64,000 bases of DNA from a virus (lineage: Duplodnaviria > Heunggongvirae > Uroviricota > Caudoviricetes). Below the pieces are notes generated by a model that saw only the letters and a list, made by a program, of their open reading frames with translations, was not told the origin of the DNA and searched no databases. A program made the translations under genes and the position numbers. Below are positions 9,245 to 31,606 of the stretch, in pieces. Positions within the stretch are counted from its first letter, which is position 1; each line of letters begins with the position of its first letter. The DNA is taken from positions 107,394 to 171,393 of the IMG/VR virus record IMGVR_UViG_3300028805_000051. The stretch is one strand, 5' to 3'.

Positions 9245-9250
9245 ATTTTA

Positions 9251-9739
9251 TTAATTTGAAAATGTTAATGGAAAAACAATTGGAAAAATATTTCCAATAT
9301 GGTCTGACTTTGCTACTAATGTGCTTCCAGCATAAATGTAAAGTAAATTGTTATTATTTGCTGTCACAAAATACCATTTAGTTTCAGATACAGTTCCTTC
9401 CTACTAACGCTGTTGAAATTCTCTTAAAGTTAATTTATCTACAGCTTTATCACCTTGTGGTCCAGTTGGACCTAATAAATTTTTAAATTTGAATATAAAA
9501 TCTAATAATGGTGATCCAGTTACATTTACTTCAACTTCAGGAGTACCTTGTTGATTTAATTCACTGTCATCCACTTCAACACTGTGTACTTTTGGTGTAA
9601 TTCTTTCTATATACTCAGCTCTAAATTTTGAGTTATCTGGAGTATAAATAGATGGATCGAATATATCCTAATTGTTTCCACTCTAATGACACTATTTTTT
9701 AGTATTTATAGGACTTAAATTTCTATCAAATGTTTTCAT
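9251..9739 (-). CDS. small structural protein with a collagen-like Gly-X-Y patch (LLGPTGPQGDKA); contains about 6 in-frame TAG
   Basis: Codon walk from the ATG (plus cat 9737-9739) to the TAA (plus tta 9251-9253); length 489 nt is a multiple of 3. Confidence 0.45.
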
Positions 9740-10041
9740 ATTTTAATATCTGGAATAATCCAAAATAAAACACTTTGTAAATATTCTATCTAACTATCAT
9801 TTATCATATTACTGCATTCTACAATCTGTTTTATTTTATTATTAAGTTGTTTTACTAAATTATCATTTAATCCTCTTGGATCAGAACTATCGTTTAAAGT
9901 TATGTCTCTTATAACTTCATAATATTCATCAATAAACATTAAATACAGTAATATACAAATTTCAATATTAGGAACATTTCCATTCTTTTCAGCATATTCA
10001 AAATTATTATTTAATGCTAATAAAATCTAATTACTTTCCAT
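9736..10041 (-). CDS. hypothetical late protein; contains 3 in-frame TAG
   Basis: Codon walk from an ATG candidate at 10039-10041 to the TGA at 9736-9738, which overlaps the next gene's start codon as ATGA. The stop is solid; the start is uncertain. Confidence 0.35.
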
Positions 10042-10603
10042 GACAACAACAATTATTTATATTACTTACAGAAGTACTGTAATTTTCAGTACAATTATTA
10101 AATAAAGATTTAGAATTATCAATTGTAGCTGACCACGAACATAATTCATTTAATCTCTGCCAATATTTTATTGCAGATTTTATATCAGATATGGATAATG
10201 CTAATTTAAAACCATAATAAGCTAATATTGGTAAAGCATTCTAAATAAATTTATCTGAATTTTTATCTATCTAAAAAATTCCAGCCTTTTCTGCTACTAA
10301 ATTAAGCAGATTATAATTATTATATATTGGAAATATAAAAGGATATGTATTATCTGCTAATTCTAAATATGCAAATAATAATTCATTTGTTGTAAAAGGA
10401 GAATTACTAATATCTAAATCTATATTAAATAGAGTTCCTTGCTCAGGTCTATTTATAATAAAACTAGACGCACTAGGTGTTGAAGAAGAAACAAAAGTAG
10501 TAATATTATCTATTAAAATTCTACTATGGTTATCATATAATATTTGTTCTTCTGCAGATGCAACTAGTCTAATGTGTGTTTCATCAATAATTTTAAATAT
10601 CAT
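10031..10603 (-). CDS. hypothetical late protein, 190 aa; contains several in-frame TAG
   Basis: The ORF track fragment 10271..10603 extends past its TAG to a TAA at 10031-10033 (in-frame codon walk); 573 nt. Confidence 0.45.
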
Positions 10604-12810: not shown

Positions 12811-12869
12811 AGTTAAATATTATTTATTTTAAAATAAATATTTTAATATTATTTCCCAAGTATTTTATA

Positions 12870-13235
12870 TTAACTATTATTATTTTCAATAATATAAGTA
12901 ATATCATCTTGCTGAACTCTATGTGTAGTATCATAATCACCTTTAATACTATCATTTACCGGTCCAGGGCAATTTTTACTTGTTCCAATTGTAAAAAACT
13001 AAATAGCACCTAAAGCAGATTCTTGCAATGCTTTCTTTAAATATTTTAAAAAAGTATCTCCTTCAGCTTCAATTGCTACTACAAAAGGAGTTTCATCACA
13101 AAGTAATGGAATAGATACTTTATAACCTACTGGATATAATTTATCTATAATTAAGTTTCCTGTATAGCAGCAATCATATAATTCATTTATTAACTATCTA
13201 ACTTTTTCATTAATACATTCTTTAGATAGTTCATG
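12870..13235 (-). CDS. hypothetical late protein, 121 aa; 2 in-frame TAG
   Basis: Frame-checked; 366 nt. Starts at an ATG at 13233-13235 and ends at a TAA at 12870-12872. Confidence 0.4.
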
Positions 13236-13259
13236 TTCAGTATATACAATATTATTCAT

Positions 13260-13472
13260 TATTCGTATCCCCACACTCTTGGATCACTAGAACGAGGGCC
13301 TTTTTCTGAAGTTTCACTACGAACATTCATTTGCTAAGGCTATCCAGGAATAACACCCCATCGTTTGTAACCTCTTTCATCAGTATAATAACCTACTTTT
13401 TGTTGTACAGTTGTTTCATCTTGTTTTATAACTTTTACAGGAACAATTGAACCAAGTTCTTCGTCAGCTAGT
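13260..13472 (-). CDS. small hypothetical protein, 70 aa; 2 in-frame TAG
   Basis: ATG at 13470-13472 to TAA at 13260-13262. Translation: MTELADEELGSIVPVKVIKQDETTVQQKVGYYTDERGYKRWGVIPG-Q-P-Q-QMNVRSETSEKGPRSSDPRVWGYE (Q marks a TAG codon). Confidence 0.35.
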
Positions 13473-13536
13473 TCTGTCATCACTTATGTTACCCTATAGG
13501 CTTTTTATCCTATAGTTCTTATGGTTTCCCATAAGG

Positions 13537-14451
13537 TCAGCGTACATTTTCATTCTAATTAACAGAATGTTCCGCACTCTTGGGAGGATTATTACTCTCA
13601 TTAACGTTCACCTCCTACGCGTTACGGTGCTCAGCGATTAACTGAGTTACCTCGGTATCAACATAATGATTAAACTTATTATATTTTCTCGACAATCTAA
13701 AAATTGAATCATCATAAAGAATATGATACAAAGCGTCAGTTACTTTTTTACTAGCAGTACATAATCTATACATCTAATCTCTTTTTATATAATTTATATT
13801 CATAGAAATTTCATATTTTTCTGCTAACCATTTTTGAAATTCCACTAATAATGTACTAGTTTTAGCCTCTATTTGAACACTTGTTCTTATTGTCCAATTA
13901 ATTTCTCTATTTGCTTTATTAGGTTCGTGTATATAATAAGTAAAACAACCATCTCCATCAAAATAACCTCTAAAGAAATGTCTTACTAATTCTTCTGGCA
14001 TTTTAGGAATATGTAATTCCTTGTAAGTTTTTCTTTCAACAATTCCTAATTTATGCAAATCTTCTATTAAAATTTTACTAGCAATATTAAGTCTTATACT
14101 TGATTTATTTTTTACTGTTTTTCCTCTAACAGTAGCTAAAGATTCAGTACCTGAAAATTCTTGAACATAAGCATTAGGACTTATCATTTTAAAATATTTA
14201 AATATTTCAGCATCCTTATCATTTATATGAATAGAAAGTGTATGTCTTTCATCATTAATAGATCCATCTGACATTATAAATCCTAATAAATAAGCTTGTA
14301 ATTCAGTTTTAATTTCTTTAAAGAAATCATGTCTTATTGCTCTTTTGCTAGTTCCATTTATATATAATGGACAATTTTCTTTTAAATAATTTAATTCTTC
14401 AATTCTTGTCATACGATAATTCGTTTTAAGTTTAATCATATTAGCCTTCAC
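13537..14451 (-). CDS. LAGLIDADG homing endonuclease (two LAGLIDADG motifs). It reads through the TAG at 13774 and a second TAG, ending at a TGA at 13537-13539.
   Basis: Motifs LLGFIMSDGSI and FRGYFDGDGCF. After the annotated TAG at 13774 the frame continues for 78 codons of plausible sequence (MYRLCTASKKVTDALYHILYDD...) to a TGA. Total 915 nt. Confidence 0.65.
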
Positions 14452-14466
14452 CGATTTTGCGGAATT

Positions 14467-16596
14467 TTACATGGGCATGTAAAAAAGTCTACCCATACTA
14501 GCTATAATATCAAAATGAGTTTTATTTTCATCTGTGTATCTATTGAGTTCATCAAGCATATCTTCAAACCAAATTGTATGTCCAAAGTCTTCAACAAAAT
14601 TTGCAATTAAATCAGTTTGATGGTCAATAATTACTGTTGTAGCTGGAGTACCTACAGTTCTCCTTCCAATTTTTGTTGGGTCAGGATATGTAGCTCGAGG
14701 TCTTGCCATGAAATAATTATAGAATCCTTTTTCTCTAGCCCAAGTTAACATAGATACACGAGTTGCTTCAATGTTAATTGCAGCTTTATAATACTATGCT
14801 AAGCACATAGCTATTTTATAAGCTTCACGAATATCATCTGGTCTATCTTTATAATATGCAACATACTATGGTTCTCCTAAACCAAATGCACGCTTTTTAA
14901 TCGTTATGCAAAATTTAGATGGATTATCAGTATTAACTGAAGTATCTTTTGCTCCAATGTCAATAGAGTCAATACCCGCTATATATAAATTATGCATTTC
15001 TGAATAATCTCTTTCTTCATTTTCCTGAAGACTTTCCTTATATAAATTTGTCCAAACTGGATGCTCTAATATGTGTATCTTACCAGTTAGACTTTCATCC
15101 CATCTAAACCCTATAATATTTTCTTTAGTATGTACTCCATTCTTATATACATATGCTAAATTTCCATGATGTATTTCTGGAGCAATTTTATGTAATCTAA
15201 TATTTGCTAATTGCTCTGCTACGATAATTTTATTAAATTTATTTTCTCCTTCTAATGAGAAAGCTTCTTCAGCAGTAAAACAATATTCAGCACAATAAAT
15301 TATAAGAGCTTTTGGATCTTTTGCTTTTTTATCTCGCTAAGTATTATAATAAGCTTTACCTTTTTCAGGGTCAGTCCATCCTCTTTCATCAGTACAATCT
15401 GGTCTATTTACAATAGCATAAGCAGGAATAAAATAAGCAGTTGATACTTCTTCACCAGTAGGTGTATGATTATGGTGATATGGGAGAATATCATAAACAT
15501 CAGTATTATAATACATTTTACGTAATCCTTCAAGAGCTGCACCAGCATCACCACCTGTTCCTCCTCCTAATTTTATACCGAATCTAGCACCCTAAATTCC
15601 TACAAGAGCATCACCTTGAATAAAAGCTTTAGTTGAATTAGGCCAAGAACCCAACTCTTCATAAACTAATAAGTCAGTACGATCACCTCTAATTTTATTA
15701 GGTTTATCAGCAAGAATACCTTCAATCTAAGACATCCAACCAGTTTCAATTTTCTGACCATTTATAATTTTATATACAGATGCTCTCTTTTTAGTATAAG
15801 TATCTGACACTTGTCTTAATTTGAAGAAACCTCCATCGGTATAATTATTTAGGAAGGCAAGAGCATTCCATACTTTATCTAAAGTTTTATTTAAATAATT
15901 CTCTAACTAAGCTGTAAGGACATTAACTGAATTTCTATAACTATTATAAGCATTAGCTAAAATAGCAGCATTAATTTCAGAATATCCAATACCTCTAGCT
16001 TTCATTAACACAGCATTAACTCTTAATCTTCGAGCTAATTCAACATAATGAAAGAATTCATATTGCCCTACAAAGAATTTAGGGAAGTCGTATAAACGAG
16101 ATGAACCTGCTTTCTTTGCAGAAGTCAGGTCCATCAATTGATAAAAATTAAGAAAGAAATAATGGTCTCCTGTAATAGTATATCCATTAACAGTCATTCC
16201 ATCTTGACATCTTCTATACTGTTCATCCCAGAAATCATTGTATGCTTTCGTGTTTCTAGGATACTAACAATAATGACCTGTCCTTAAGAAAACCTCTCTT
16301 GTCTCTGTAAACCATTCAGGTTTAAAGTCTAAACCTTGTGTTTCATTAATCGGTTTATAACCTGTTATTTCATAAGACTTTCTAGCATCAAAATATGTAA
16401 CAACATCATTAACAGAAAAATCCCATCCACCATTACGTTCTTTTATGACTTCCTATTTAATTTGAGCAATTTCTTCCTACTATAATTTTTCTTCTTTTTG
16501 TTTAACCTCCTAAACTATGGTTTGTATTTCATCAGGAAGCTAAACAAGAGGAGTTTTTCTAGGTCTACCTCTTTTTCTTTTAACTTCTTCTGCCAT
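14467..16596 (-). CDS. terL: terminase large subunit, 709 aa, with about 12 in-frame TAG codons
   Basis: A continuous frame runs from the ATG (plus cat 16594-16596) to the TAA (plus tta 14467-14469); 2130 nt is a multiple of 3. The first in-frame TAG is at plus cta 16540-16542. The minus-strand translation has an ATPase-like N-terminal half (FVGQYEFFHYVELARRL, KARGIGYSE, a Walker-B-like LLVYEELGSWPN) and a nuclease-like C-terminal half (IAGIDSIDIG). The function call rests on overall resemblance. Confidence 0.55.
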
Positions 16597-16598
16597 AA

Positions 16599-17183
16599 TT
16601 AAAAATTAGGAGTATAACCATCTTCATAACCACCACGTAAAGTAGAAGATTCAGCTACTTCTTTCTTAACCATAGATTCAAGAGTTGTAAGTTCATCTTG
16701 AACCTTAGATAATGAAGAAATTTCAGCCATAATATCTTTTACTTTAAATATTGGTTTTCCTGTTTGTAAATCTCTTTCTTCAGGATCTATGTTATGAAAA
16801 TAATCAATAAATTTGTCAACAGTCTCTTGTGCAGCATGTAGTAAACGAATAGATCGAGTTGATTCCTAAATAGACTTAAATTTTCGACAAGCAGCTCTAA
16901 ATTCAGGATTATTAAACTCTTCATCTGTCATATGTGCATCTTGTAAAGAAAGCATATGTCGTTCTTGTTCACTAAAATCTGCATAAGGACTTTGCCAATC
17001 TAAAGCTAAATATATATATGTAAATTCTCTAAAAGCTCTTAATTTATATTTTCCGTCTTTATCCTCTTTACAAATATTTCGTTCATCTTTCATCAACTCA
17101 TTAAACTCTTTCACAAGTAATATTTCATGATGATTGAGTTCCACAGTACCATTAGCATTATTATATTGAAATATTTTTATCAT
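16599..17183 (-). CDS. hypothetical protein immediately upstream of terL (small-terminase candidate by position only); 1 in-frame TAG
   Basis: ORF track fragment 16866..17183 extended through a TAG to a TAA at 16599-16601; 585 nt. It has a coiled-coil-like C-terminus. Confidence 0.4.
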
Positions 17184-17932
17184 TTTGGAATTAATTTTAA
17201 TTTTAAACCTAATCTTCCAAAAGAAATGTTACTTCCTGATATTCCCCAAGGTCTTACTTCTGATTTAAAAGGTTTTGTAAAATCTAAAGTTTGTTTTACA
17301 TTGCTTGGATTTGAAGTAGTCATCATAGGTTTATTTATTGAAGTAGACCCAGTTATTGGGTTTAATTCAGTATTAAATGAAGTAATGGATGGAATATTAG
17401 GATTATTAATTGAACTTATAGATAAAGGATCTTTTTTCTGAGTTCTATTCCAATAATTTACGAGTAAATTATCATTATCCTATCCAAAACTTTGATTTGT
17501 TAATACATCATTATTTATTTTCTCTGAATCTTTTTTAGGAACATCTACTTCAACTTCAGGAACTTCTTCTTTTGGTTTATTAGATAATCTATTAAAAAAT
17601 CTTGGAAATCCTTGTCTACCAAGTGCTCCCATTACATTTATTATAGCTGGAGTTGGATCAATTTCATCTCTATCTTTCGGCTATTTAAATAAATTATATA
17701 AACCTTGAGCTGCTAAAGATCCAACTGAACTGTTAGGGTCCCACTATTGAGCTGCATGTAAAGCAGCAGAACGAATACTTGCTGTTTCACCTGCCGATGT
17801 GGCATAATCATTCTGGTCTTTTAAATCCTCTTTGAATTTTTCTTCCCATTTTTTAGCAGCCCAATAGTCCATAGCTCCATCTAACATAGTTTGTCCAGCT
17901 TGAGCTAAATTCATCCAACCTAGTGGTTCCAT
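17180..17932 (-). CDS. hypothetical late protein, about 250 aa; about 3 in-frame TAG
   Basis: The TGA at 17180-17182 overlaps the downstream ATG as ATGA. The gene is in the same frame as ORF track fragment 17744..17932, and an upstream in-frame TAA lies at 17972-17974. Confidence 0.4.
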
Positions 17933-17936
17933 AGTA

Positions 17937-19484
17937 TTATTTTTTACACTTTCTGCCGTTCTTAAATTTGGTTACTAATGGAGATTCTCCACCATTTTCC
18001 ATTTTCTTACCTTTGCAGGCTTCTTCTATTTTCTGACATTTTTTGCAAACTTTTCCACCAATCTTAAACATCTTCATTTCATAACCTTCTGGACATTTGC
18101 CTTGTAATTTTCTAAAATATTCAAGTTTAGCTCCATATTCAGCTTTAACTGATAATGCTTGCTAAATTCCATTTAAAGCTTTTGATGCTAATTCAGCCAT
18201 TTCCGGATCAGCATCTTTTTGTTTGCTAATTTTTGTAGCTAATGTAATAAAATTACCAAGTTGTTCTTGAGTTGTAATACCTAATATCTTAGATAAAGCT
18301 TCCATATCTCCAGTTGCAGCAGTTTCAAATGCAGATTTTAAAATTTCTCTTTGTTTTGCAGAATTATCTCTATTTACTTGTTGTTGGTTAACTTGACCAC
18401 CCATTTGAAAATATTTCATTTTACCACCTTTTTTAAATGTGTATTTATTACTTTGATATTTATAAGAAGATACCACATTTCCTTGTGCATCATAGACTTT
18501 ACCATCTGATCCAGCATAATATTTTGTACCATTAGCGTCTTGAATTACAAAGAAATCTCCAACAAAATTATCTTTAGAAAGACTTTTTCCATATAAAGCT
18601 CCGGCAGGATCAACAAATAATTTATCTGTTTCACCACCAGGAGACCAATAATTATCTATATGTTTTAAACCAAAAGCTGTCTATACTGCTCTTGCTCTGG
18701 CTGGATTAGTAATGCCTCTAGCTCCCCATTTTATTTTATCCCAATTGTCAACATTCTCAGATATTGCAGGGAGATCTGTTGGTAAAGTTGGATTAACTGT
18801 GTCAGGTTTATATAAATCAGATATAGCTTTAATCTAATCTGAAGTTAAATCATTAGCAGCAAGACTCTATAAATAACCATTAAAATTATCAGAATATCCT
18901 TGATTTGCTAAATAATTTTGTATTCCAACATTAGTAAAATTTCTATCAGTACCCAACAAGTCATTTAGAGTATTATATCTTTCATTTGCATATAAAGATT
19001 CAAGTAAAGCTTTATATGCTGGAGTATAAGAATCAGAATTATCAAAAGAATAATTATATGTTCTTTTTTCTTCAGGAGTTTCTACCTTTGATTTAGGGGT
19101 CACTTTAATATATGGATTATTAGTAGCCAACATTTTTTTACGAATATTGGCTTGTTCATCTGTCCAACCTTCTGGAGTAGAAACACCATATTTACGAGCA
19201 TATCTTTGATTATGTCTTTCTTCTCTTATTTTATTAAACCAATCTTCATCTGTGTACCCAGTATCTGTTGGCTTTCCTTGATCATCAGTTTGAAATGCAT
19301 CATTAAATCGATACAAGTTACCATTTTGACCTTGATATAAGTAACCGTTATCTCTAAAATACTATAATTTTTTTCGGCGATTAAATAATCCCAGACGAAG
19401 GTCTGAGAAATCTAAAACATTTGAACCATCAGTTGCTGGTGCAACTATGTTTTTACCAGCCTAAAAATATTTTATTTGTCTCAT
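17937..19484 (-). CDS. hypothetical virion protein, 515 aa; about 5 in-frame TAG
   Basis: ATG (plus cat 19482-19484) to TAA (plus tta 17937-17939); 1548 nt. Joins ORF track fragments 18867..19316 and 18162..18476. The C-terminus has a Cys-rich segment, CPEGYEMKMFKIGGKVCKKCQKIEEAC. Confidence 0.45.
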
Positions 19485-19705
19485 TGTTTTACAAGTTCTA
19501 AATCTTTTGTATTAAATACATCTTCTTGAATATATCCATCAGATGTAAACCATCTGCAACGTATTCCTCTTAATATTCCTTCCTTGTCTTCATCATGTTT
19601 AATCATACTGTTTACTTTTTTAACAACAAGCATGATTGGTTTATTTGGAATATTCTATCGAATAGTTACTAAATCACCTGGTGAAAAGAAAACTTTTTCT
19701 TCCAT
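19481..19705 (-). CDS. small hypothetical protein, 74 aa; 1 in-frame TAG
   Basis: ATG at 19703-19705. Its TGA overlaps the next gene's ATG (ATGA at 19481-19484). Confidence 0.35.
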
Positions 19706-21838: not shown

Positions 21839-22029
21839 CTTTTAACGTTATTAAATAATTCTAATTAAACAAATAAATACAATTCGCAGTAAGCCGAATC
21901 TAATAAACTTGTTCTAACCTTTATCTATTTTGAATTTACTAAAATTAACTGTATTATTAGTTAAAACAAAATTAAAGGATATAAAGAATGAAAGTTTAGA
22001 TAAATTTAAACAATTTCAATGATGATGTT

Positions 22030-23673
22030 TTGCCACATCTTGAAGATAATACTTCTAATGGTTATTTTTCTCAATTAATTCCTATGGGAAAATTGGGGAT
22101 ACATATTAAAAAGAAAAATAGGGGTTCTTTTACTTCATATTGTGGTGGAAAAGTTACTGATGCTTGTATACAAAAAGGAAAAAATAGTTCTAATCCTGTA
22201 ACAAGAAAAAGAGCAACTTTTGCAGATAATGCTAGAAAATGGAAACATTAGGAAGGTGGTTCTTTAATCCCGGGAATAAACTATAAAAGTATTAGTAATT
22301 TATTTGTAGATACGGATCAAGCACCTGTTTATGATCCAAAGAGTAATAAAAAGAGTAAAAAAGATAATGTAGATCCTCTTTTACAAGACTTGTCTGTATA
22401 CTAGTAGCCTAAAAGAACTTATGATTTAAGTTCTATTTATAATAATAGTATAGAAGACCACTAGGAAGAACCTTGGTATAATACAGTTTATCATGAATAT
22501 CAACCTTCTTCTAAAACACCTAGTATTAGTCACGATAGATTAATGGCAGCTATTACTCCTCATTTAGGATTTAAAGGTTCTCTTGGACATTATGATTGTT
22601 CTAATTTTGTTTCTCGTATTTTAGGAGATTTAGGATATAATTTATCTGGAAATTGTAGAACACTTTATGCTAATACTGATAGAGTAGATTTACCTGATTT
22701 AAGAGTAGGGGATTTAGTATTTAAATAGGACACACAAGGTGATAGAGTTCCGCATGGTTAGGCTAGTCATGTTGCTATTGTAACTGATGTAAGTAGACTT
22801 GGTGAAGGAATAATTCAAGTAGCCTAGGGAAGTGCTTCTGGATCAAAAACTTAGATTATGGACTGGAATTTAAATAATATGTCAAATTATTTTGGTGCAG
22901 GCAGAATACGTAAAGGTAAACAAGGATTTAAATTTCAATTAGGAGGATTATTAACCTCTTTACCTACACCACAAAGATTTTCTCCAGATAATTTCTTTGA
23001 AAGTGAAAATGAAATTAGTAATGAACCATTAAATATTTCTTTTTAGATAGAAGATGTTCCTCCTTTATTTGAGCAAAAACGATAGTAGTAGCAAGCTTTA
23101 ACTAATAATGAAGAAGATAATGCTTGGTATACTAGAGTGTATGCTCCTAAAAAGAAAAAAAGTAAATTATTGACTCCATCTGAAAAACATTATTCTGGCA
23201 AAGGATATAATTTCTTTAAATAGGAATTTGATAAATATTTATCTATTGATCCTTCAGCAAAAAAGTATGAACAAGTTTTAACAGACATTGCTAATAGAGA
23301 AAGTAGATTTAATTTTGGAATACAAAATACTGCTGGGGCTCCTGCTTATGGATGTTTCCAATTCTGGCAAGATGGTAAAATAAATAATATTACTCATTAT
23401 TCTGGATTAAGTGTTGATGAATTCCTTAACAATCCTCAAGCACAAATTGCTGCTGCGGTTAAATTGGCAAGAGATATAGAAAAAAGATTTAATTCAGAAG
23501 ATTTAAGAATTGCTAATGCAAGAGGATATGATATGAATGCTTTAATTAAAGGAGCATGGTTAGGAGGAATTGGTGGAGTTAGAAAAGTATTAAGAGGGTT
23601 AGGTAATCCTAGTGATAGTAAATGGTACGGTGGAAAAAGTGGAGCAAGTGTTAAACAAGTAATGGAATCATAA
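22030..23673 (+). CDS. virion-associated peptidoglycan hydrolase with an NlpC/P60-CHAP-like Cys/His region and a lytic-transglycosylase-like region; 547 aa with about 16 in-frame TAG, including three consecutive
   Basis: A single frame joins ORF track fragments 22030, 22543, 22858 and 23464, all with position mod 3 equal to 1, and ends at a TAA at 23671-23673; 1644 nt. Motifs: HYDCSNFVSRILGDLGY...HVAIVTDV and AYGCFQFWQDG...GAWLGGIGG. The TAG-TAG-TAG run is at about 23086-23094. Confidence 0.5.
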
Positions 23674-23688
23674 TAAATATAAACTTAT

Positions 23689-25350
23689 ATGAAAAAATTA
23701 ATTAAAAAATACTAGTGGGGAAATATAATGGTTCCTCCAGTCCCAGGAACTACCCCAAGTAATAGCGATTAGATGGGAGCTATTAATTATTATAATTAGC
23801 AGCAAAGTTAGATACCCATAATAAAGCAAAAAGATGCTGAAAGAAAAGAAGCTGAGGCAAAAAAAGCCTACGAAAGACATAGAGGATATATTGGGCCAGA
23901 TAAAAATCCAAAATCTTATAAAGAAAGAGAAAATGATGCAAGAAGAAATGAAATTAATTATATGGTTCAAACTAATCCTTATCATCAATGGATTTCTGAT
24001 CCAAATGGTACTGGTTCAATGTAGGCTGCTGTAAAAATAATGCCTTAGGTTATTGAAACAACTTAGAATTATTTTAATAGACCAGTAGGTGAAATTTTAA
24101 AAGGAGAGGCAAGAACTTTAAATCATGCACTTAATCCATTTATGGTAACTGATGATGCATTTTAGAGATCAAAATATTATATGCAGCATGGTTAGCCTGT
24201 TTTAGGAATGTTAAGTGGGTTTGGTGGATTTGGTTTAGGTACTTTAAGTGCATTTCCTTTTGCTACTCCAGTAAAATCTGGAATTGGTTATACAGTGAAT
24301 GCTGGAAGAAAACTTGGGAGACAAATAGCTAGTGATTACACCAATTGGGTAAATTCAAATATATCTCAAGGATTGCGTTTAGGTAGTGATTTAGGATTTA
24401 CTCCTCAGTTTCAAGTAGCTGGAACCAATTTTAATTTAAGAGTCACTCCAGAATTAACTTTTGGAAGATTTAATACAATGAACAGTGTAGGACAAAATTT
24501 CTGGAATACACTTAGAGGTAAGAATAAAATTGTTGAAAATGCTGCCCCTGGTCTTGAGGCTCCAACTGGTAATGAGGCATCTTTAGGAAAATTGGCTCCT
24601 ATTTCAAACAAGAATGGTAATGTTCCTGTATATACTAAATCTCCAACTAAAAAATATTTCTTATCAGATGAAGAAATTTCTGATCCATCTTTAGTAACTA
24701 AAGAAAATAATGTTTCGTATATAACAGACCATGGTAATGTAATTTATAATCCAGAATTAGTTACAGAAGAAGTAGCTGGCAAACCTGTGTATAAGTATAA
24801 TGGTAGAAAAGTTACTCCTAAAACTACAACTGCTTATAAATATAATGGTAAATATTATCCAGAAGCTCCAATTGAAAAAGAAATTCCTGGAAAAACTCAA
24901 TTAAATGTTGGAGATGATTTACCTCGAGATGCTATATATTATGATTTTGAATCATCATCATATTAGCCTATTAATGGTGCAATATTTAGAAGACCAGGAG
25001 GCCGTGCATGGAATAGATGGACATATGCTAATGGATAGACTCCAAAGGGTTTTAAGAATCCTTGGATTTTACATACTACTATAGCTCTTCCACTCGTAAC
25101 AGGATTAGTTGCTGGTCATAAACCTATATTTAATTTTATAGGAAATAGGGTATACAGTCTTAGACAAGGAACTGGATTATTTGGTCCTGGAAGACCTAAG
25201 AAAACTCCAGTAAATAATAATTCTTCAACTGAGAATACTGATAATGGTTCAACTAGTACTACTGATACAACTACTACCACACTTCCTGTAATTGATACAG
25301 CAGCACAAAATTAGCAAGCTAATGAATTATTTAAAGAATTTGGTTATTAA
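23689..25350 (+). CDS. hypothetical virion protein, 553 aa; about 14 in-frame TAG
   Basis: Codon walk from the ATG at 23689 through ORF track fragment 24208..24966 to a TAA at 25348-25350; 1662 nt. Confidence 0.5.
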
Positions 25351-25355
25351 CTAAA

Positions 25356-25396
25356 TAAAAGCCCATTCTCTTTAATTAGGGTATGGGCTTTTTAAA
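25356..25396 (+). terminator. rho-independent terminator
   Basis: Hairpin aaagcccat...atgggcttt followed by a T-run. Confidence 0.55.
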
Positions 25397-25407
25397 TATA
25401 ATAAATT

Positions 25408-27234
25408 ATGATGAAACTAATACCTAGATTTAAAACTGGATATAAAACTCCTGATTGGGATCCTACAAATCCTTATCATTATCATACAGAAGATGGTAAG
25501 AAGGTTGTTATAACTCCTGAAGATTGGAAAGCTAATGTAGGCAAACCTTACTTTAGAGAGATCGAAGCTGCTGTTAGAGCAGAACAAGCTGCTCATCCCG
25601 CACCTGAATATGAAGTAAATCCTACTTTTGTTAGAGACTTAAGAAGTACTTATCAGTATAACATGGGTAATGGTTATTAGAACTATAAATATTTCAGCTC
25701 AGCTCTCCCTCAAGGATACAGTTTTACAGATGAAGGAATGATAGTAGATCCACAAGGTAACTATTACGTACAATCTGGTTATAGACAATCTCCTAGATTT
25801 ACTTATAGTACAGATAATCCTTTACAATTTACTATCAATAAAGGTAAACCTATTGAAAGAAATCTTACATTCTATCCTGTTAATATGGATAAGAGAGTTA
25901 AAGCACCTCTTCCTGTTGACAAAACTTTAGATGTTAGTAAAGAATATGAAAACGCAGTAAATCTTTTAATAAAAGATAATACAACATCTATAACGAATAA
26001 ATCAACTCCTATAAATATATACAAATTCCAAAGAACAAATAAATATGATAATATTAATGGAAATCCTGTAATTTTCTATCATGCAGACGTTCCATCATAT
26101 CCTATTTCAGAATTAACTAATAAACAAAATTACAGTCTATTTTATACTAAACCGGAACTTTATAAAACTGTAAATGTTCCGTATGATTTAAATAGAATAA
26201 GAAAAGATAATCCAGATTTGGCTATAGATTTTGAAAGATGGATTCAACAAGGTGCTGAAGACCAATCGTATCATTATGACAAACCATGGTTTGAGCAATT
26301 TGAAAAATATAAAACTGGAACTTACATTAATAAACCTTCTCGTCAAGAAGCTGAGAAAAAGGCTGTAATATCTATTAGTCCTTTAGAAAAAGTAAAGACA
26401 TTTGCTAATGGAGGACATTTGTTTCAAAAAGGAGGAAAAGTTAAAGGGTATAAATTGTCTTCTAAACTAATGCGTTTAGCACAAAAATTTGCTGACAAAG
26501 AAGCAGCAAAGCAAAATGAAGAAGAAGGTAATGGAGCTCCTCAATCAACTTTCTTAATGAATAGAAAAAATTAGCAAAAAGTTTTTGAACAAGAAGGATA
26601 CACAAAAGTAGATAGCGATAACTATGGTCCAGTAACAAATGCTGTGAAAAATAGTAAACATAAAGATGTTCCTATTTATTAGAAATATCCTGATGTTGAT
26701 GTGGATAGAAGTAATTTAGTAAAAATTGGAACATTTATGGATTATGCAATAAAAGGCGTACATGGTGAAACAGAAATATATAGTGGTCCTTATGAAAGTT
26801 ATCTTACAGACCCAGCTAATTTTCCAGTAGATATTTATATTGATAGAAAAACTGGTAAAGTTTATAATCAAGGTTGGGATTTTAATGACTATAATAATCT
26901 AAGAAGTACTACTGATATATCAAAATTAAAGAATATTGCTGGTAATGTACTTGATAGAATTGGAAATCCCACTGTAGTAACCACTGGATTGTAGGAAAAT
27001 GAAAATCCTCCAAAAGAAATAATTGATGATTATATAAGTAAAGCTTCTAATGGATTTTTATAGTATAATTCAAATGATGGACAAATTCAATTAAAGCCAG
27101 TTACTATCACTGCTTAGCGTACTAATAAAAAACTAATCCCAAAAGAAACAAAAGATCTACCTACTACTGGAGAATTTAGAAATATGAGTGCAGATCAATT
27201 GTTTGATTGGCTAGAATAGAATAGAAAAAAATGA
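25408..27234 (+). CDS. hypothetical virion protein, 608 aa; about 9 in-frame TAG
   Basis: Joins ORF track fragments 25408, 25738 and 26701 in one frame and ends at a TGA at 27232-27234, which overlaps the next ATG; 1827 nt. Confidence 0.5.
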
Positions 27235-27554
27235 TACAGACTAAAATAAACGGTCATGAGATTACCATTACAACTAATAATATCAATATAAAAGATTCCT
27301 ATTTAGTTTGGAATCCTTATGATATGTATGATATGTTAGATAAAATAAAAGTATTCTTAAAAGAAAATAGCATTACTATGGACACACCTCTTAATCATAG
27401 AACAAAACTTTCAATGATAAGAGAATGGATATCACATAATAATGCTTATTACTTAGGATATAAAAAAGATCAAGCGTGTAATGTAGATTTAAACTATCCA
27501 CAAAAATGGTATGTTAAAATTATTTATTTCTTTTGTAGCTTAATAAGATTATGA
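27231..27554 (+). CDS. hypothetical protein, 107 aa
   Basis: ORF track entry. ATGA overlaps at both ends. No TAG. Confidence 0.5.
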   Translation: MIQTKINGHEITITTNNINIKDSYLVWNPYDMYDMLDKIKVFLKENSITMDTPLNHRTKLSMIREWISHNNAYYLGYKKDQACNVDLNYPQKWYVKIIYFFCSLIRL

Positions 27555-29560
27555 CAAAATTAATTCCACGATATTAGCACGGAAACCCATTTTTAATAGA
27601 TAAATCTTCAATTCCTGGAACAAGCCCACAGACATCAAGTACGATTAATTATAATTGGGAATAGCGTGCTGCTAATAATGAATCAGTTAAAAAAGCTGAA
27701 CAAGAAAGAGCACAACAAGCATATTTAGATAGACGGGGATACATTTCTGAAGATAAAGATAAAAGAAGTTATGCCCAGAGAGATGTAGATGATAAAATAA
27801 ATGCTACAAAAAATGCTAAAACGGATTTTTATAGTATGGGTGCTCCTAATTCACAAAGTACTGATGTAACTCCTAAACAAGTATTAATACCTGCATTTGT
27901 TGCCGGAACTACATTTATAAATCCAGTAGCTTCTCTAATATATGGCGGTATGTACGAACCTATGGAAAAAGCAGGAGTTTATCAGCCAATTAGTTTAGGT
28001 CTACAAAAATTAGGAATGAATGAAGATGCTGCAAATATGACATCTTATTTTGCTACTGATTTAGGTATAGGTTTATTACCAGTTGTCAAAAATAGATTTA
28101 TCAATGCCTATAATAAAGCATGGAATCAAACATATGGTAATTTAAATAATCTAGGTATAAGTCCTTTCAGGAGAGTGACAAAAAATGTAAATAAACTTGT
28201 AAAAAAACCTTCCAGAAATTATTATCCAATAGAGGAAATGGCAAACAATATAGCAGAAAGAAGAGCTCCAAATACTTATACTAAATATGTAAATCAAGAA
28301 GCTATAGATAATGGGTATGAAACATATAGGAATGCAGTAAATAATGCTGCAATAGATAATATACAAAGTATAGCTAATGCTAGAATTAATTTTAGTAAGT
28401 TAAAGAAAAGAACTACACAAGAATTAAATGATTTTAATAAATTATTAACCATATCTCCTGAATATGGAATATTTTTATCATATAACCCAACACTCGATGG
28501 TCTCTCACAAGAAGCAATAGATGCATTCATAGAACACCAAAGTCTTAGTGTTAGAGGTATAGGTGTTCAAGAGAAAATACCTAAAACTACTACAGGAGCA
28601 GGTTATGTTAGAGTACACAATGCATCTGCAATAAACGATAAAAAAGCAGAAAAATTTTTAACAACACCACCAGAAAATCCTTTAGACAGATTAGGTAATA
28701 GAGGGCTTTATACTTCTAATGGTAGATATATTGCTGATAAATTTATGAGACCAGAAACAAATGGGTATAACTCTGCGTCTTATCAAGGAATAGTACATTA
28801 TGACTTCAACATAGATAGAAGTAAACCTTTAGAAGAACAACTTAGACAATATAGAAGTAAAATAAGAAATTACGATTGGGATATAACCGATCCAAGAGAG
28901 GAAATGATTGAGGCTACTTATGTTAAAAGTGGTGAGGGGGCTACAAAGAATATATATGAAAGATCAATAAACCCAAAAGGAGTGGATAAACCTGTAGTTA
29001 ATTTAAGGAAGCTTCAATATTTCGGTAAAAATCTGCCTAATTTACATGGTCGTTGGGGGTTAAATGATCTTAGTGCTGTTAGTGATCTTGATTTATTTAT
29101 ACCAAAACAACCTAGTCGCTCATTTGGTGAATTTTTAAATTTTGCTAGAAGATTAAAATCCACAAATGAATTTACTATAAAAAAGCGTAATCCTAATTAT
29201 TCTGCAGAATATTCTAATGCTTATGGTATACTGAAAAGTCAGCTTGAAAAGCGTGATAAATTAGTTAGACAATTAGAAAAGAAACATAACTTTGTAACAA
29301 AAAGCTTAAAAAGCTTATTAGTGACACCAATAGTAGGAGGTGTTGGTGCAGCAGTGGGACTTATTAAAGCATCAAATGATCGGCAGAATAAATGGTATAA
29401 TGATCATGCTATAGAACTGAGTGAGATAATAAACAAAGAATTAGGCAATGAAAAATCATATAAAGATATGACAGATGAAGAATTCGAAAAACGTTTGGAC
29501 CAAGAACATGAAATAATAGAGAGGGAATATAATAAATACAAAGAAAGTCTTAAAAAGTAA
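27551..29560 (+). CDS. hypothetical virion protein, 669 aa; 2 in-frame TAG near the N-terminus
   Basis: The ORF track entry 27836..29560 extends upstream in-frame through 2 TAGs to an ATG at 27551; 2010 nt. Confidence 0.5.
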
Positions 29561-29594
29561 TAATTTAATATTCATATTAAAATAAAACAATAAA

Positions 29595-29630
29595 GGCGAA
29601 CTCGTTTTCACGGGCTCGCCTTTTTATTTT
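29595..29630. terminator. bidirectional rho-independent terminator between convergent genes
   Basis: Hairpin ggcgaactcg...cgggctcgcc, then TTTTTATTTT. Confidence 0.55.
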
Positions 29631-29631
29631 A

Positions 29632-29943
29632 TCAGTTTGTTTTATTTATTGTATATGTTACTCCATTTTCTGTTGAATAACATTCCGTTCCATTTGTAGT
29701 ACATTTAATAGGAGTTGATCCTAAAGTGCAATGACATATTCCAGAACCTCCATTAGAAGGATGGTTTGGGCAATTCTTACAAGCTTCTGGAACATTATCT
29801 TTTAAATCAGAAATAGTATAAAATTCTGGTTTCCAATCTTTTATTTGAACATAAGGAGTATTTATTTGAGGAATAGGACATTGTCTACCTCTATCAAATT
29901 CTTTTTGTAAGAGTTCATTTAATTCACCAACTGAAATTTCCAT
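29632..29943 (-). CDS. small Cys-rich protein
   Basis: ORF track entry. Confidence 0.45.
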   Translation of the reverse strand: MEISVGELNELLQKEFDRGRQCPIPQINTPYVQIKDWKPEFYTISDLKDNVPEACKNCPNHPSNGGSGICHCTLGSTPIKCTTNGTECYSTENGVTYTINKTN

Positions 29944-30117
29944 AATTAATGTGTTACACTAAGTTTGTTCATTCTATCCATAAAATCTAAAAATTCTTGC
30001 TCGTTGGCAAGTCCATTTTCTTCGCAGAACTCTATTACTTCTTTAAAATAGTGTTCTACAGTTGCCATAAATTTAATTGGTAATTTATTATTCATATAAC
30101 ATTAACATTAACATTAG

Positions 30118-30188
30118 ATGTCCGCCCAGGACTCGAACCCGGAAATGGTGGGTTAGAGCCACCCGTTTTACCATTAGACTACCGGACA
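30118..30188 (-). tRNA. suppressor tRNA, anticodon CUA (reads UAG); possibly Gln-type (U1:A72)
   Basis: Reverse complement: TGTCCGG TA GTCT AATGGTA AAAC G GGTGG CTCTAAC CCACC ATTT CCGGG TTCGAGT CCTGG GCGGACA T. Cloverleaf with anticodon loop CTCTAAC, giving anticodon CUA. Confidence 0.8.
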
Positions 30189-30203
30189 TTATTTAGGAGA
30201 GAA

Positions 30204-30590
30204 TTACTCTCCTTTATTATTAAGGTATTTATTAAATAATCTGTTTACTTCTTCAGTGTGCTCTTTAATACTCTGTTCCACAATTTCCTTAACAATAGCT
30301 TTGAAGATTTTGTAAGCAACTTTAATATTCTCCATATTAGGATTCTTTTCTTCAAGAGTCATCATTACTTTGAAAGCAGCAGGATTAGATGTTTTGAGTT
30401 TCTCAGCAGCAGCTTCAAAAATTTCATCATCGAGATCTTCGATTTCTTGTCTAATTTTCTGGAGTTCAGTATTATCTTTCTTTTTAGAAATAAAAATTAC
30501 TGTATTTCCTTCTTCATCTTTATCAATCTTTACATCATTTACATTTTCATAGGCAAATAAAGCCACTAAATTTTCGATTAATTTTTCCAT
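30204..30590 (-). CDS. hypothetical acidic protein
   Basis: ORF track entry. Confidence 0.45.
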   Translation of the reverse strand: MEKLIENLVALFAYENVNDVKIDKDEEGNTVIFISKKKDNTELQKIRQEIEDLDDEIFEAAAEKLKTSNPAAFKVMMTLEEKNPNMENIKVAYKIFKAIVKEIVEQSIKEHTEEVNRLFNKYLNNKGE

Positions 30591-30981
30591 ATATTATTTA
30601 TTTATTTAATATAATTAATTATAACTAACATTTTCCAATTTTCAAAGTAATTTGAAAATTTTCGAAAAAATGCTAAATTATTTTCAAAATTTCAAAATCA
30701 GTAAAGCAGAAAATATAAAATATAATATTTATAACCACTTTCCTTTAATTAATAAATTATATACGAGAATTTTCGTAATTCCAAATACTTCCAAAAATTT
30801 CGAGAAAAAGCATGCTTTCTGAAATAATAGCCCCCCTATATTCACCCCCGCCCCCTATTTTCAGAATTCGGAAAATTATTTCCAGAATTTTTTTCAAGGA
30901 TTTAAAAGATTTTTAAAAGGAATTTTCAAAATATGAAAAGTTATAGGAGAGGGAGGAGACATATGTCTTCGACCCCCGGGC

Positions 30982-31584: not shown

Positions 31585-31606
31585 GTAATACGTAGGAAAT
31601 TATAAG
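31585..31606 (+). promoter_or_regulatory. conserved promoter-like motif, copy 2 (GTAATACGTAGGAAATTATAAG)
   Basis: See copy 1. Confidence 0.45.

What the first reader, a model, noticed from the sequence alone, without database searches (positions are those of the whole stretch)
30118..30188. Phage-encoded amber suppressor tRNA (anticodon CUA), immediately downstream of the recoded late operon
A well-folded 71-nt tRNA lies on the minus strand. Its anticodon loop CTCTAAC gives anticodon CUA, which pairs with UAG. It has U1:A72, and C34 U35 match a Gln (CUG) anticodon with position 36 changed, consistent with a Gln-derived suppressor by analogy. It supplies the decoding capacity the TAG-containing late genes need, and it is separated from the other tRNAs in the island.
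Basis: partly seen in the sequence, partly recalled or inferred. Interest (0 to 1): 0.8.

Follow-up and report, generated by a model that had tools for sequence, protein, structure and literature searches.

The report
Phage amber-suppressor tRNA reading TAG as glutamine
This is a real tRNA gene in a large crAss-like gut phage that reads the stop codon TAG as glutamine, so the phage can translate its roughly 90 TAG-interrupted virion genes; it is a well-made example of a mechanism already described for this phage group.

Summary
A 71-nt tRNA lies at 30118-30188 on the minus strand (Rfam tRNA 46 bits against a threshold of 29; ARAGORN anticodon CUA). Orthologues sit at the same place in five related contigs. 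Six of their 21 stem pairs show compensatory changes and none is broken by a substitution.

The window is the last 64 kb of a 170-kb crAss-like ("Zeta"-type) phage contig. Fourteen virion and packaging genes carry 90 in-frame TAGs. Nineteen other genes carry none and never stop at TAG.

Codon-level comparison with relatives shows that TAG stands for glutamine (131 nats better than lysine). TAG has replaced about three quarters of the CAG codons in the late genes.

With the anticodon masked, the tRNA classifies as tRNA-Gln. It matches a phage tRNA-Gln(CUG) in its D-arm, anticodon loop (G36 to A), variable loop and T-loop. It shares five acceptor pairs with this lineage's own tRNA-Gln(UUG).

It sits on the opposite strand in its own conserved, TAG-free four-part cassette.

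Suppressor tRNAs and TAG-to-Gln recoding of late genes in crAss-like phages are already published, so this is a new member of a known kind and of modest interest.

The parts
30118..30188 (-). Amber suppressor tRNA, anticodon CUA (anticodon at 30154-30156), type I, 4-nt variable loop, discriminator U, no encoded CCA
   Evidence: ARAGORN. Rfam RF00005 46 bits against 29. Orthologues found in L123, L131, L132, L133 and L134. In the four of them aligned with the window (A4: L123, L131, L133, L134; L132 left out), 6 of 21 pairs are compensatory.
30204..30590 (-). 128-aa TAG-free ORF directly upstream of the tRNA; first gene of the cassette, function unknown
   Evidence: ORF list. 30 homologues at 68-94% identity; in each of the five related contigs examined (L123, L131-L134) the tRNA follows the homologue directly. 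No Pfam family above cut-off. AlphaFold2 pLDDT 81, but no PDB fold match.
30195..30213 (-). 7-bp hairpin AGGAGAG-TAATT-CTCTCCT overlapping the stop codon of the 128-aa ORF, 6 nt before tRNA position 1
   Evidence: Read from the sequence and listed. Its role (processing or attenuation) is not tested.
29946..30095 (-). 49-aa TAG-free ORF starting 22 nt after the tRNA
   Evidence: Translation. Conserved after the tRNA in L123 and L131-L134. A 41% identical homologue lies about 1 kb from the tRNA-CUA of the more distant L129.
29632..29943 (-). 103-aa TAG-free Cys-rich ORF, last gene of the cassette
   Evidence: Its Cys-rich motif family is widespread in other phages that have no tRNA nearby, so it is not specific to the suppressor.
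29581..29632 (.). Hairpin GGCGAGC-12 nt-GTTCGCC with T-runs on both strands, between the cassette and the converging late operon; probable bidirectional terminator
   Evidence: Read from the sequence. Identical in L123. Not reported by the scan because its loop exceeds 8 nt.
30591..30900 (-). Conserved non-coding leader of the cassette, with two sigma-70-like promoter matches (TTGAAA-16-TATAAT at 30645..30618; TTGGAA-17-TATAAT at 30784..30756), a palindrome AAAGCATGCTTT and G-runs
   Evidence: 91% mean column identity across 5 relatives, whose 128-aa proteins are only 73-94% identical.
21985..29560 (+). Client genes: four large TAG-containing late genes (14, 12, 7 and 2 in-frame TAGs); the first has NlpC/P60 and SLT muralytic domains
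1886..19511 (-). Client genes: TAG-containing virion and packaging block, including the portal (15 TAGs), TerL (12 TAGs) and a 2,452-aa protein (6 TAGs)

Best explanation
The gene encodes a glutamine-accepting amber suppressor tRNA of a roughly 170-kb crAss-like phage.

**Proposed mechanism**
1. The tRNA is transcribed from its own TAG-free cassette on the minus strand: leader with promoter-like sites, 128-aa gene, tRNA, 49-aa gene, 103-aa gene, terminator.
2. It is cut out of that transcript and receives its CCA end from host enzymes.
3. It is charged with glutamine by the host Gln-charging system. Like this lineage's own tRNA-Gln, it offers that system U1:A72, G2:C71, U3:A70, G10 and U35.
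4. It then pairs with UAG in competition with release factor 1.
5. This lets ribosomes read through the 90 in-frame TAGs in the portal, terminase, muralytic and other virion genes, which would otherwise give truncated products.

Genes outside that block contain no TAG and end in TAA or TGA, so they are translatable before and after the tRNA appears.

**Shown here**
- The tRNA, its anticodon, its conservation and its covariation.
- The TAG distribution across genes.
- TAG = Gln, from codon comparison with relatives.
- The Gln-like body of the tRNA.
- The cassette architecture.

**Inferred**
- Transcription from the leader, and processing of the transcript.
- Charging by a host enzyme.
- That accumulation of the tRNA sets the time at which late proteins can be made.
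For: **tRNA and anticodon**
-.
- Selection on the cloverleaf: 6 of 21 pairs compensatory, none broken by substitution, 0 of 500 shuffles as high.
- A tRNA-CUA lies directly after the 128-aa gene in five related contigs.

**Need for a suppressor**
- Reading TAG as sense raises long-ORF coverage of 8-28 kb from about 0.4-0.66 to 0.8-1.0.
- 14 genes hold 90 in-frame TAGs.
- 19 other genes have 0 TAGs and stop at TAA 16 times, TGA 3 times and TAG 0 times.

**TAG means Gln**
- At window TAG positions, true CAA/CAG is the commonest partner in most relatives, including MT835470.1, which has no in-frame TAG in the aligned genes (10 of 29).
- Over 202 aligned sense codons, Gln fits 131 nats better than Lys.
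- CAG is 34% of Gln codons in TAG-free genes but 8.6% in late genes (p = 8e-8). CAG plus TAG is 33.7% in late genes (p = 0.92).

**Gln identity of the tRNA**
- A naive-Bayes classifier on 352 phage tRNAs with the anticodon excluded (leave-one-out accuracy 61.5%) puts Gln first by 10.5 nats.
- The best near-full-length blastn matches in annotated phages are tRNA-Gln genes.
- Phass-1 tRNA-Gln(CUG) shares the D-arm UAGUCUAAUGGnAAAAC, the loop CUCUGAC against CUCUAAC, the variable loop AUUU and the T-loop.
- Of 393 tRNAs collected, the only non-suppressor that starts TGTCC is the tRNA-Gln(UUG) of a close relative.

**Literature**
- The same system is reported for crAss-like phages (PMC7886860).
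- A temporal model has been proposed (10.1101/2021.08.26.457843).
- There is proteomic proof of code 15 in crAss-like phages (PMC9523058, abstract).
Against: - **Nothing here measures expression, charging or read-through.**
- **Partial match to E. coli GlnRS determinants.** Several known determinants are absent: G3:C70 is U3:A70, G73 is U73, U38 is C38, and G36 is necessarily A36.
- **Low overall similarity to the lineage's tRNA-Gln.** Identity to tRNA-Gln(UUG) is only about 54% (my count from the sequences printed). Descent from a Gln tRNA therefore rests on loop and arm motifs and on a crude classifier.
- **Host unknown.** The charging route (GlnRS, or GluRS plus GatCAB) is therefore unknown.
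- **Window is incomplete.** Only 64 of 170 kb is in the window, so a second suppressor, an aaRS or a release factor elsewhere in the genome is not excluded.
- **Promoter matches may not apply.** The scan uses E. coli-type consensus sequences, which Bacteroidota hosts do not use.
- **No gate-like placement of TAG.** A test for preferential placement of TAG near gene starts was negative (p = 0.33 and 0.66).
Confidence: 0.87

Rival explanations
1. The tRNA is a working amber suppressor but inserts an amino acid other than glutamine (Lys, Glu, Trp or Tyr, as single-base anticodon changes from those tRNAs would allow, or pyrrolysine as ARAGORN labels it).
For: ARAGORN prints 'tRNA-Pyl' for any CUA anticodon. 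Lys and Glu are the next most frequent residues opposite window TAGs (27 and 18 of 202). Several E. coli GlnRS determinants are missing (U3:A70, U73, C38).
Against: - Gln fits the aligned residues 131 nats better than Lys. Lys and Glu are the ordinary substitution partners of Gln.
- The codon budget shows TAG replacing CAG specifically.
- The short variable loop excludes bacterial Tyr, Leu and Ser types.
- The canonical G18G19, the T-loop and the 5-bp anticodon stem are unlike tRNA-Pyl.
- No pyl genes or other aaRS appear among the ORFs scanned.
- The classifier ranks Gln first, then Asn, Met and Ile; Lys is not among the four printed.
Confidence: 0.05
2. The main purpose of the tRNA is not decoding but regulation or attack. 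Either it acts as a timed switch that keeps late and muralytic genes untranslatable until it accumulates, or it damages the host by reading through host TAG stops. This builds on the decoding explanation rather than replacing it.
For: - The tRNA has its own TAG-free cassette with a leader that is 91% conserved across relatives. It is on a different strand from both the tRNA island and the late operons.
- The first TAG falls within the first 6% of the ORF in 7 of 13 late genes (at codon 4, 8 or 9 in four of them), so products would be cut very short without it.
- The adjacent late operon starts with an NlpC/P60 + SLT muralytic protein carrying 14 TAGs.
- Both ideas are published hypotheses.
- A tmRNA-like gene in the island would fit a cell in which read-through strands ribosomes.
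Against: - There are no expression data.
- Early placement of TAG is no more frequent than random placement among Gln sites (p = 0.33 and 0.66).
- No release factor or aaRS partner was found in the window.
- The temporal class of the cassette is unknown.
Confidence: 0.35
3. The tRNA-like sequence is a decayed or chance tRNA look-alike, and TAG is decoded by something else, such as a host suppressor or another phage tRNA outside the window.
For: It scores lower than most tRNAs of the island (46 bits against 49-76). It has two non-paired stem positions and lacks CCA. Published surveys find recoded phages with no detectable suppressor.
Against: - The score is well above threshold.
- The gene is kept at the same site in five relatives, with six compensatory pair changes and an invariant anticodon loop. 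Both mismatches are themselves conserved.
- It is the only CUA tRNA among about 30 in the window.
Confidence: 0.02

Closest known systems
Suppressor tRNA(CUA) of TAG-to-Gln ('code 15') crAss-like phages, especially the 145-192 kb Zeta group (Yutin et al. 2021, PMC7886860; Borges et al., bioRxiv 10.1101/2021.08.26.457843; Peters et al. 2022, PMC9523058)
   Same: - A crAss-type TerL and portal and a 170-kb contig.
- Many tRNAs, and an intron-like insertion with a homing endonuclease in TerL.
- TAG reassigned to Gln only in the late genes.
- A phage-encoded CUA tRNA.
   Different: - This lineage is only about 30% identical in TerL to named crAss phages. It has just two unannotated GenBank relatives and one IMG/VR relative.
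- The suppressor here lies outside the tRNA island, in a separate conserved cassette. I did not find that arrangement in the passages I read.
- A formal phylogenetic placement in the Zeta group was not done.
E. coli supE (glnV) amber suppressor, a tRNA-Gln(CUG) with anticodon changed to CUA
   Same: The same single change (G36 to A) in a CUG-type anticodon loop. U1:A72, G2:C71, G10, U35 and A37 are present. It inserts Gln at UAG in competition with RF1 (established knowledge of supE; Gln inferred here).
   Different: Here it is a dedicated, conserved phage gene that serves 90 essential sense TAGs, not a weak mutant allele. G3:C70, U38 and G73 of the E. coli identity set are absent.
tRNA-Sup-CTA and tRNA-Gln(CUG) of phage Phass-1 (OQ749652.1; PMC10607447)
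   Same: Another TAG-recoded gut phage with a large tRNA set. Its tRNA-Gln(CUG) is the closest annotated look-alike of the window tRNA in the D-arm, anticodon loop, variable loop and T-loop.
   Different: It is an unrelated phage lineage. Its own suppressor sits inside the tRNA island and did not classify as Gln in my crude test.
'Code change module' of Jade phages: suppressor tRNA + aaRS + release factor upstream of the lysis cassette (bioRxiv 10.1101/2021.08.26.457843)
   Same: A suppressor tRNA encoded in standard code, next to a heavily recoded block that begins with a muralytic gene.
   Different: No aaRS or release factor was found in the window. The partners here are three small proteins of unknown function. 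The orientation is convergent rather than upstream.

Membership tests
Canonical tRNA (Rfam RF00005) | Covariance-model score at or above the curated threshold over the full model | tested here: met
   46.0 bits against a gathering score of 29, model positions 1-71.
Canonical tRNA (Rfam RF00005) | Cloverleaf maintained in evolution, and conserved U8, A14, G18G19, U33 and T-loop UUCGA | tested here: met
   6 of 21 pairs compensatory, 90.5% of cells paired against 37-50% when partners are slid. The conserved bases are read in the alignment.
Amber suppressor tRNA | Anticodon CUA in a 7-nt loop, flanked by U33 and a purine at 37 | tested here: met
   Loop C-U-CUA-A-C, invariant in five orthologues.
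Amber suppressor tRNA | In-frame UAG codons in genes that must be translated | tested here: met
   90 TAGs in 14 genes, including the portal and TerL.
Amber suppressor tRNA | Demonstrated read-through of UAG | not testable with these tools
   Needs a reporter assay or proteomics.
Gln-inserting (supE-like / code 15) suppressor | TAG positions correspond to Gln codons in homologues | tested here: met
   Codon-level tallies. Gln is best by 131 nats. TAG replaces CAG in the codon budget. Homologue proteins in the large database were themselves called with code 15, so they were not used as evidence.
Gln-inserting (supE-like / code 15) suppressor | Acceptor-stem marks of bacterial tRNA-Gln: U1:A72 and G2:C71 | tested here: met
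   Both are present and invariant, even in L134 and L129 whose pairs 3-6 are all swapped. The first pair was T/A in 13 of 22 phage tRNA-Gln and otherwise in 12 of 16 Asn, with smaller numbers in a few other isotypes.
Gln-inserting (supE-like / code 15) suppressor | Remaining E. coli GlnRS identity set: G3:C70, G10, U35, G36, A37, U38, G73 | tested here: inconclusive
   G10, U35 and A37 are present. U3:A70, A36, C38 and U73 differ. The lineage's own tRNA-Gln(UUG) also has U3:A70 and lacks G73, so the E. coli rules may not transfer.
Gln-inserting (supE-like / code 15) suppressor | Body of the tRNA resembles tRNA-Gln rather than other isotypes | tested here: met
   Classifier with the anticodon excluded: Gln first by 10.5 nats, leave-one-out accuracy 61.5%. 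Top annotated blastn hits are tRNA-Gln. Motif match to Phass-1 tRNA-Gln(CUG) and an acceptor match to L135 tRNA-Gln(UUG). The test is crude; tRNAscan-SE isotype models were not available.
Gln-inserting (supE-like / code 15) suppressor | Aminoacylation with Gln | not testable with these tools
   Needs in vitro charging or acylated tRNA-seq.
tRNA-Pyl | Short D-loop without G18G19, 3-nt variable loop, 6-bp anticodon stem, pylS/pylBCD genes | tested here: not met
   G18G19 present, 4-nt variable loop, 5-bp anticodon stem in the covariance-model alignment. No such genes appear among the scanned ORFs.
crAss-like (Crassvirales) phage, Zeta-type | crAss-type TerL and portal, 145-192 kb genome, many tRNAs, introns or inteins, late-gene recoding | tested here: met
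   phrog_6681 and phrog_6547. TerL hits to crAss phages. 170,300-nt contig. About 30 tRNAs. TerL split by a LAGLIDADG-bearing insert.
crAss-like (Crassvirales) phage, Zeta-type | Placement inside the Zeta clade in a TerL/MCP/portal phylogeny | not tested
   No tree was built and no Zeta reference genomes were fetched.
'Code change module' (suppressor tRNA + aaRS + release factor) | aaRS and/or RF gene adjacent to the suppressor | tested here: not met
   The neighbours are 128-, 49- and 103-aa proteins with no family match. Among ORFs of 300 aa or more, all but the 2,452-aa protein (1886-9247) were scanned, and none matched an RF or aaRS. The other 106 kb of the genome was not seen.

The most novel reading that the evidence does not exclude
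The suppressor is the core of a dedicated 'code-switch' cassette. Its strongly conserved 310-nt leader would time the tRNA's appearance. One or more of the small co-transcribed proteins would help UAG read-through, for example by acting on RF1 or on the Gln-charging enzyme. The 128-aa protein directly precedes the tRNA in all five related contigs examined, and the 49-aa protein stays within about 1 kb of a tRNA-CUA even in a relative with only 62% TerL identity.
Probability: 0.12. Interest if true: 0.65.

Novelty: new member of a known kind. Interest (0 to 1): 0.3.

Why it matters
The finding gives a clean, internally consistent example of stop-codon reassignment in a phage, in four linked parts:
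- the decoder: a conserved tRNA with covarying stems;
- its clients: 90 TAGs confined to virion genes;
- the meaning of the codon: Gln, shown at codon level against relatives;
- a trace of how it arose: TAG took over about three quarters of CAG codons, and the tRNA looks like a CUG-type tRNA-Gln with G36 changed to A.

It is of practical value for annotating this poorly represented phage lineage, which must be translated with code 15. It also offers a compact cassette that could be cloned to test the published idea that suppressor timing gates late-gene expression. It does not change what is known about the mechanism.

Tried and rejected
1. **Homologue proteins as evidence for Q at TAG.** Rejected. 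The large database's proteins were themselves called with code 15: the look-up reports 'translates_to_query: no', and TAG corresponds to Q in the stored sequences. I used codon-level comparison instead.
2. **Pattern scans of IMG/VR for the anticodon arm or the tRNA body**. The first gave mostly chance matches. The second found only one related contig.
3. **Looking for the orthologous tRNA with a CUG anticodon in a standard-code relative.** MT835470.1 has no tRNA in the 100 kb fetched and no homologue of the cassette genes.
4. **Function for the 128-aa neighbour.** No Pfam family above cut-off. The AlphaFold2 model has pLDDT 81, but the best PDB match has E = 0.39.
5. **The 103-aa Cys-rich neighbour as a suppressor-linked factor.** It hit only the TAG-recoded phage Phass-1 among 50,697 phage records. 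However, four divergent family members in other phages have no tRNA within 10 kb. Rejected.
6. **TAG placed preferentially near gene starts, as a translational gate.** Not significant (5 observed against 3.8 expected; p = 0.33 and 0.66).
7. **A shared promoter motif linking the cassette to the neighbouring plus-strand genes.** TAATRCGTAGG occurs three times before plus-strand genes but not before the cassette.
8. **Release factor or aminoacyl-tRNA synthetase in the window.** None found among the ORFs scanned.
9. **Single-sequence folding energy.** Uninformative (z = -1.1).

Full report
**1. Is it there?**

Yes. ARAGORN finds one tRNA on the minus strand at 30117-30188 with anticodon cta. Rfam's tRNA model matches 30118-30188 over its whole length at 46.0 bits, against a threshold of 29.

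The aligned cloverleaf is: UGUCCGG UA GUCU AAUGGUA AAAC G GGUGG CUCUAAC CCACC AUUU CCGGG UUCGAGU CCUGG GCGGACA U.

- Two stem positions do not pair (G7.G66 and C12.A23).
- No CCA is encoded.
- The discriminator is U.
- Folding energy alone says nothing (z = -1.1).

**2. Is it a maintained gene?**

The gene next to it, a 128-aa ORF at 30204-30590, has 30 homologues at 68-94% identity. A tRNA-CUA follows the homologue directly in all five related contigs I could read: L123, L131, L132, L133 and L134.

Across these orthologues:
- The anticodon loop is invariant.
- Pair 50:64 switches between C-G and U-A.
- In L134, pairs 3:70, 4:69, 5:68, 6:67 and 29:41 are all replaced by other standard pairs.
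- U1:A72, G2:C71 and even the two mismatches stay unchanged.

Counted formally, 6 of 21 pairs have changes on both sides and none is broken by a substitution. No shuffle out of 500 reaches this.

A more distant relative, L129 (TerL 62% identical), has a differently built tRNA-CUA elsewhere. It again has U1:A72 and G2:C71.

**3. What genome is this?**

- The last 11,065 bases of the window are identical to the end of JGI metagenome contig Ga0310691_10000097 (170,300 nt), so the window appears to be that contig's last 64 kb.
- The portal (10600-12819) and large terminase (14467-16605) match crAss-type PHROG families.
- TerL finds crAss-like phages at about 30% identity and two unannotated human-gut phage records at 56% and 45%.
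- There is no nucleotide-level match in 50,697 phage records.
- A genome of this size, about 30 tRNAs, a homing-endonuclease insertion in TerL and late-gene recoding match the description of the 'Zeta' crAss-like group (PMC7886860). I did not build a tree.

**4. Do the late genes need it?**

Treating TAG as sense raises long-ORF coverage of 8-28 kb from about 0.4-0.66 to 0.8-1.0. Treating TGA as sense does not.

- Fourteen genes in 1886-19511 (-) and 21985-29560 (+) carry 90 in-frame TAGs, including 15 in the portal and 12 in TerL.
- Nineteen clear genes elsewhere carry none. They stop at TAA 16 times, TGA 3 times and TAG never.

**5. Which amino acid?**

The many full-length homologue proteins in the large database cannot be used. 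They were called with code 15, so their Q at these sites is often a TAG.

Working from the DNA of relatives instead gives the following.
- True CAA/CAG codons are the commonest partner of window TAGs in most relatives. This includes MT835470.1, which has no in-frame TAG in the aligned genes (10 of 29).
- Substitution tables were learned from the same alignments. With them, Gln explains the 202 aligned residues 131 nats better than Lys, the runner-up. Relatives are not independent, so the margin is inflated, but the ranking is clear.
- The codon budget gives an independent sign. CAG makes up 34% of Gln codons in TAG-free genes and 8.6% in late genes (p = 8e-8). CAG plus TAG makes up 33.7% in late genes (p = 0.92). 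TAG has therefore taken the place of about three quarters of the CAG codons.

**6. Is the tRNA Gln-like?**

I collected 393 phage tRNAs from all loci fetched (352 unique sequences were usable) and compared 59 structural positions, leaving out the anticodon.

- The nearest non-suppressor neighbours are tRNA-Gln genes.
- A naive-Bayes classifier (leave-one-out accuracy 61.5% over 20 isotypes) ranks Gln first, 10.5 nats ahead of Asn.
- An unbiased blastn of the tRNA against annotated phages returns mainly tRNA-Gln among near-full-length hits, though with weak E-values.
- The tRNA-Gln(CUG) of phage Phass-1 shares the D-arm (UAGUCUAAUGGnAAAAC, including the C12.A23 mismatch), the anticodon loop except G36, the AUUU variable loop and the T-loop.
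- The tRNA-Gln(UUG) of a close relative of this phage (L135) shares the first five acceptor pairs, UGUCC/GGACA. It is the only non-suppressor of the 393 that does.

Overall identity to that tRNA is only about 54% (my count from the sequences printed). The evidence therefore supports a Gln-type tRNA with G36 changed to A, not recent duplication of the resident tRNA-Gln(UUG). Of the E. coli GlnRS identity set, G3:C70, U38 and G73 are missing. The lineage's own tRNA-Gln also lacks G3:C70 and G73.

**7. Where does it sit, and how is it likely expressed?**

Reading the minus strand:
1. A 310-nt non-coding leader (30900-30591) with two sigma-70-like matches: TTGGAA-17-TATAAT and TTGAAA-16-TATAAT.
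2. The 128-aa ORF.
3. A 7-bp hairpin over its stop codon.
4. Six nucleotides later, the tRNA.
5. A 49-aa ORF (29946-30095).
6. A 103-aa Cys-rich ORF (29632-29943).
7. A hairpin with T-runs on both strands (29581-32), facing the end of the plus-strand late operon at 29560.

All three ORFs are TAG-free. The leader is 91% identical across five relatives, whose 128-aa proteins are only 73-94% identical. This suggests regulatory constraint.

The tRNA is thus adjacent to the recoded operon but convergent with it. It is 7.6 kb away from the plus-strand tRNA island and on the other strand. This fits the published model in which code-change components are encoded in standard code and made before the recoded genes. 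Nothing here shows timing. The promoter matches use an E. coli-type consensus that may not apply to the unknown host.

**8. Are the neighbours part of the mechanism?**

I found no support for this.
- The 128-aa protein has no family match and no structural neighbour.
- The 103-aa protein's Cys-rich motif hits only the TAG-recoded phage Phass-1 among GenBank phages. However, divergent members of its family sit in four other phages with no tRNA within 10 kb.
- The 49-aa protein has a 41% identical homologue about 1 kb from the tRNA-CUA of the distant L129. This is the only hint of a deeper link.
- No release factor or synthetase was found among the ORFs scanned.
- TAGs are not placed nearer to gene starts than chance allows.

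**9. Comparison with what is known**

The following are all published:
- suppressor tRNAs in crAss-like phages;
- TAG-to-Gln reassignment restricted to late genes;
- emergence of suppressors by single anticodon changes in tRNA-Gln;
- the hypothesis of temporal or anti-host function.

The sources are PMC7886860, 10.1101/2021.08.26.457843 and PMC9523058. This case works like those and like E. coli supE. It passes every membership feature that could be tested, except part of the E. coli-specific GlnRS identity set.

What is particular to this lineage:
- the stand-alone conserved cassette;
- the very conserved leader;
- the clear CAG-to-TAG codon budget.

**10. Verdict**

It is a new member of a known kind. 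Interest is modest (0.3). Confidence in the decoding explanation is 0.87.

The most novel reading still open is a dedicated code-switch cassette with protein helpers. I give it about 12%.

Noticed in passing
window 13262-16596 (-): The large terminase gene is split. Residues 1-704 of a 777-aa homologue map to 16596-14491, and residues 705-777 map to 13480-13262. The 1,010-nt insert holds a LAGLIDADG endonuclease ORF (13537-14466) that itself contains 3 in-frame TAGs. It is probably a self-splicing intron, but Rfam gave no intron hit.
   Followed up: partly
window 50691-51292 (+): A tmRNA-like gene just below Rfam's threshold (45.5 bits against 47; E 1e-16 locally). It has a GGGGGUA/UACCUCC acceptor stem with G3:U70, a T-arm and a 280-nt insertion. 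ARAGORN did not call it. A phage tmRNA could matter in a cell where stop-codon read-through strands ribosomes.
   Followed up: partly
window 38632-38720 (+): A tRNA-like RNA (Rfam 35.8 bits) with a tRNA-Gln-type D-arm (GGUGUAAUAAGGUAGCAC). In place of the anticodon arm it has a 13-bp hairpin with a 5-nt loop. ARAGORN reports a 4-base 'anticodon' gctg. The fold z-score is -4.6.
   Followed up: partly
window 37844-38539, 42182-42321, 54499-54651, 62374-62494; also 40273-40359, 41332-41418, 49531-49619, 59664-59749: Several tRNAs of the island carry insertions of about 50-620 nt in or beside the anticodon loop. The first looks like a tRNA-Leu(UAA)-type gene with a large intron. Asp, Lys, Met and Cys tRNAs have unusually long variable arms (86-89 nt in total).
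   Followed up: no
window 62029-62163 (+) and 43444-44757 (+): A weak match to the Y-RNA-like family YrlA (35.5 bits against 69). Elsewhere in the island there is a 437-aa protein with DUF2828 and DUF7788 domains.
   Followed up: no
window 1886-9247 (-): In the 2,452-aa protein, all six TAGs lie in the first 183 codons: 6 of the first 12 Gln-type codons against 0 of the next 71 (post-hoc P about 2e-6). The same pattern appears in 27518-29560, where both TAGs fall in the first 38 codons. This suggests that the distal parts were acquired from standard-code sources.
   Followed up: partly
window 23683-, 25405-, 27518- (+) and 17937-19511 (-): Several large late proteins begin with a shared motif (M.KLI(K/P)(K/R)(Y/F)Q.GN). 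In three of them the Q is a TAG at codon 8 or 9.
   Followed up: no
window 30983-30993, 31586-31596, 32295-32305 (+): The motif TAAT(G/A)CGTAGG occurs exactly three times, each shortly before one of three consecutive small plus-strand genes next to the cassette. It may be a phage promoter or operator. It is absent before the tRNA cassette.
   Followed up: partly
window 60410-60979, 34932-35465, 46099-46533, 52481-52996 (+): Four ORFs in the 'standard-code' half end at TAG, with TAA or TGA as the next stop. In 60410-60976 the TAG is followed immediately by TAA, and in 34932-35441 a TAA follows 8 codons later. Read-through by the suppressor would therefore add little in those two.
   Followed up: partly
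L120 (MT835539.1) 6356-6440: The closest GenBank relative (TerL 56% identical) carries a tRNA with anticodon UUA (an ochre-suppressor type) in a cluster that also has tRNA-Gln(UUG). Its late genes also contain many in-frame TAGs.
   Followed up: no
proteins P0001-P0120 and loci L126, L129: Proteins in the large homology database for this lineage were predicted with TAG read as Q. Residue Q in those sequences is therefore not independent evidence for the meaning of TAG.
   Followed up: yes
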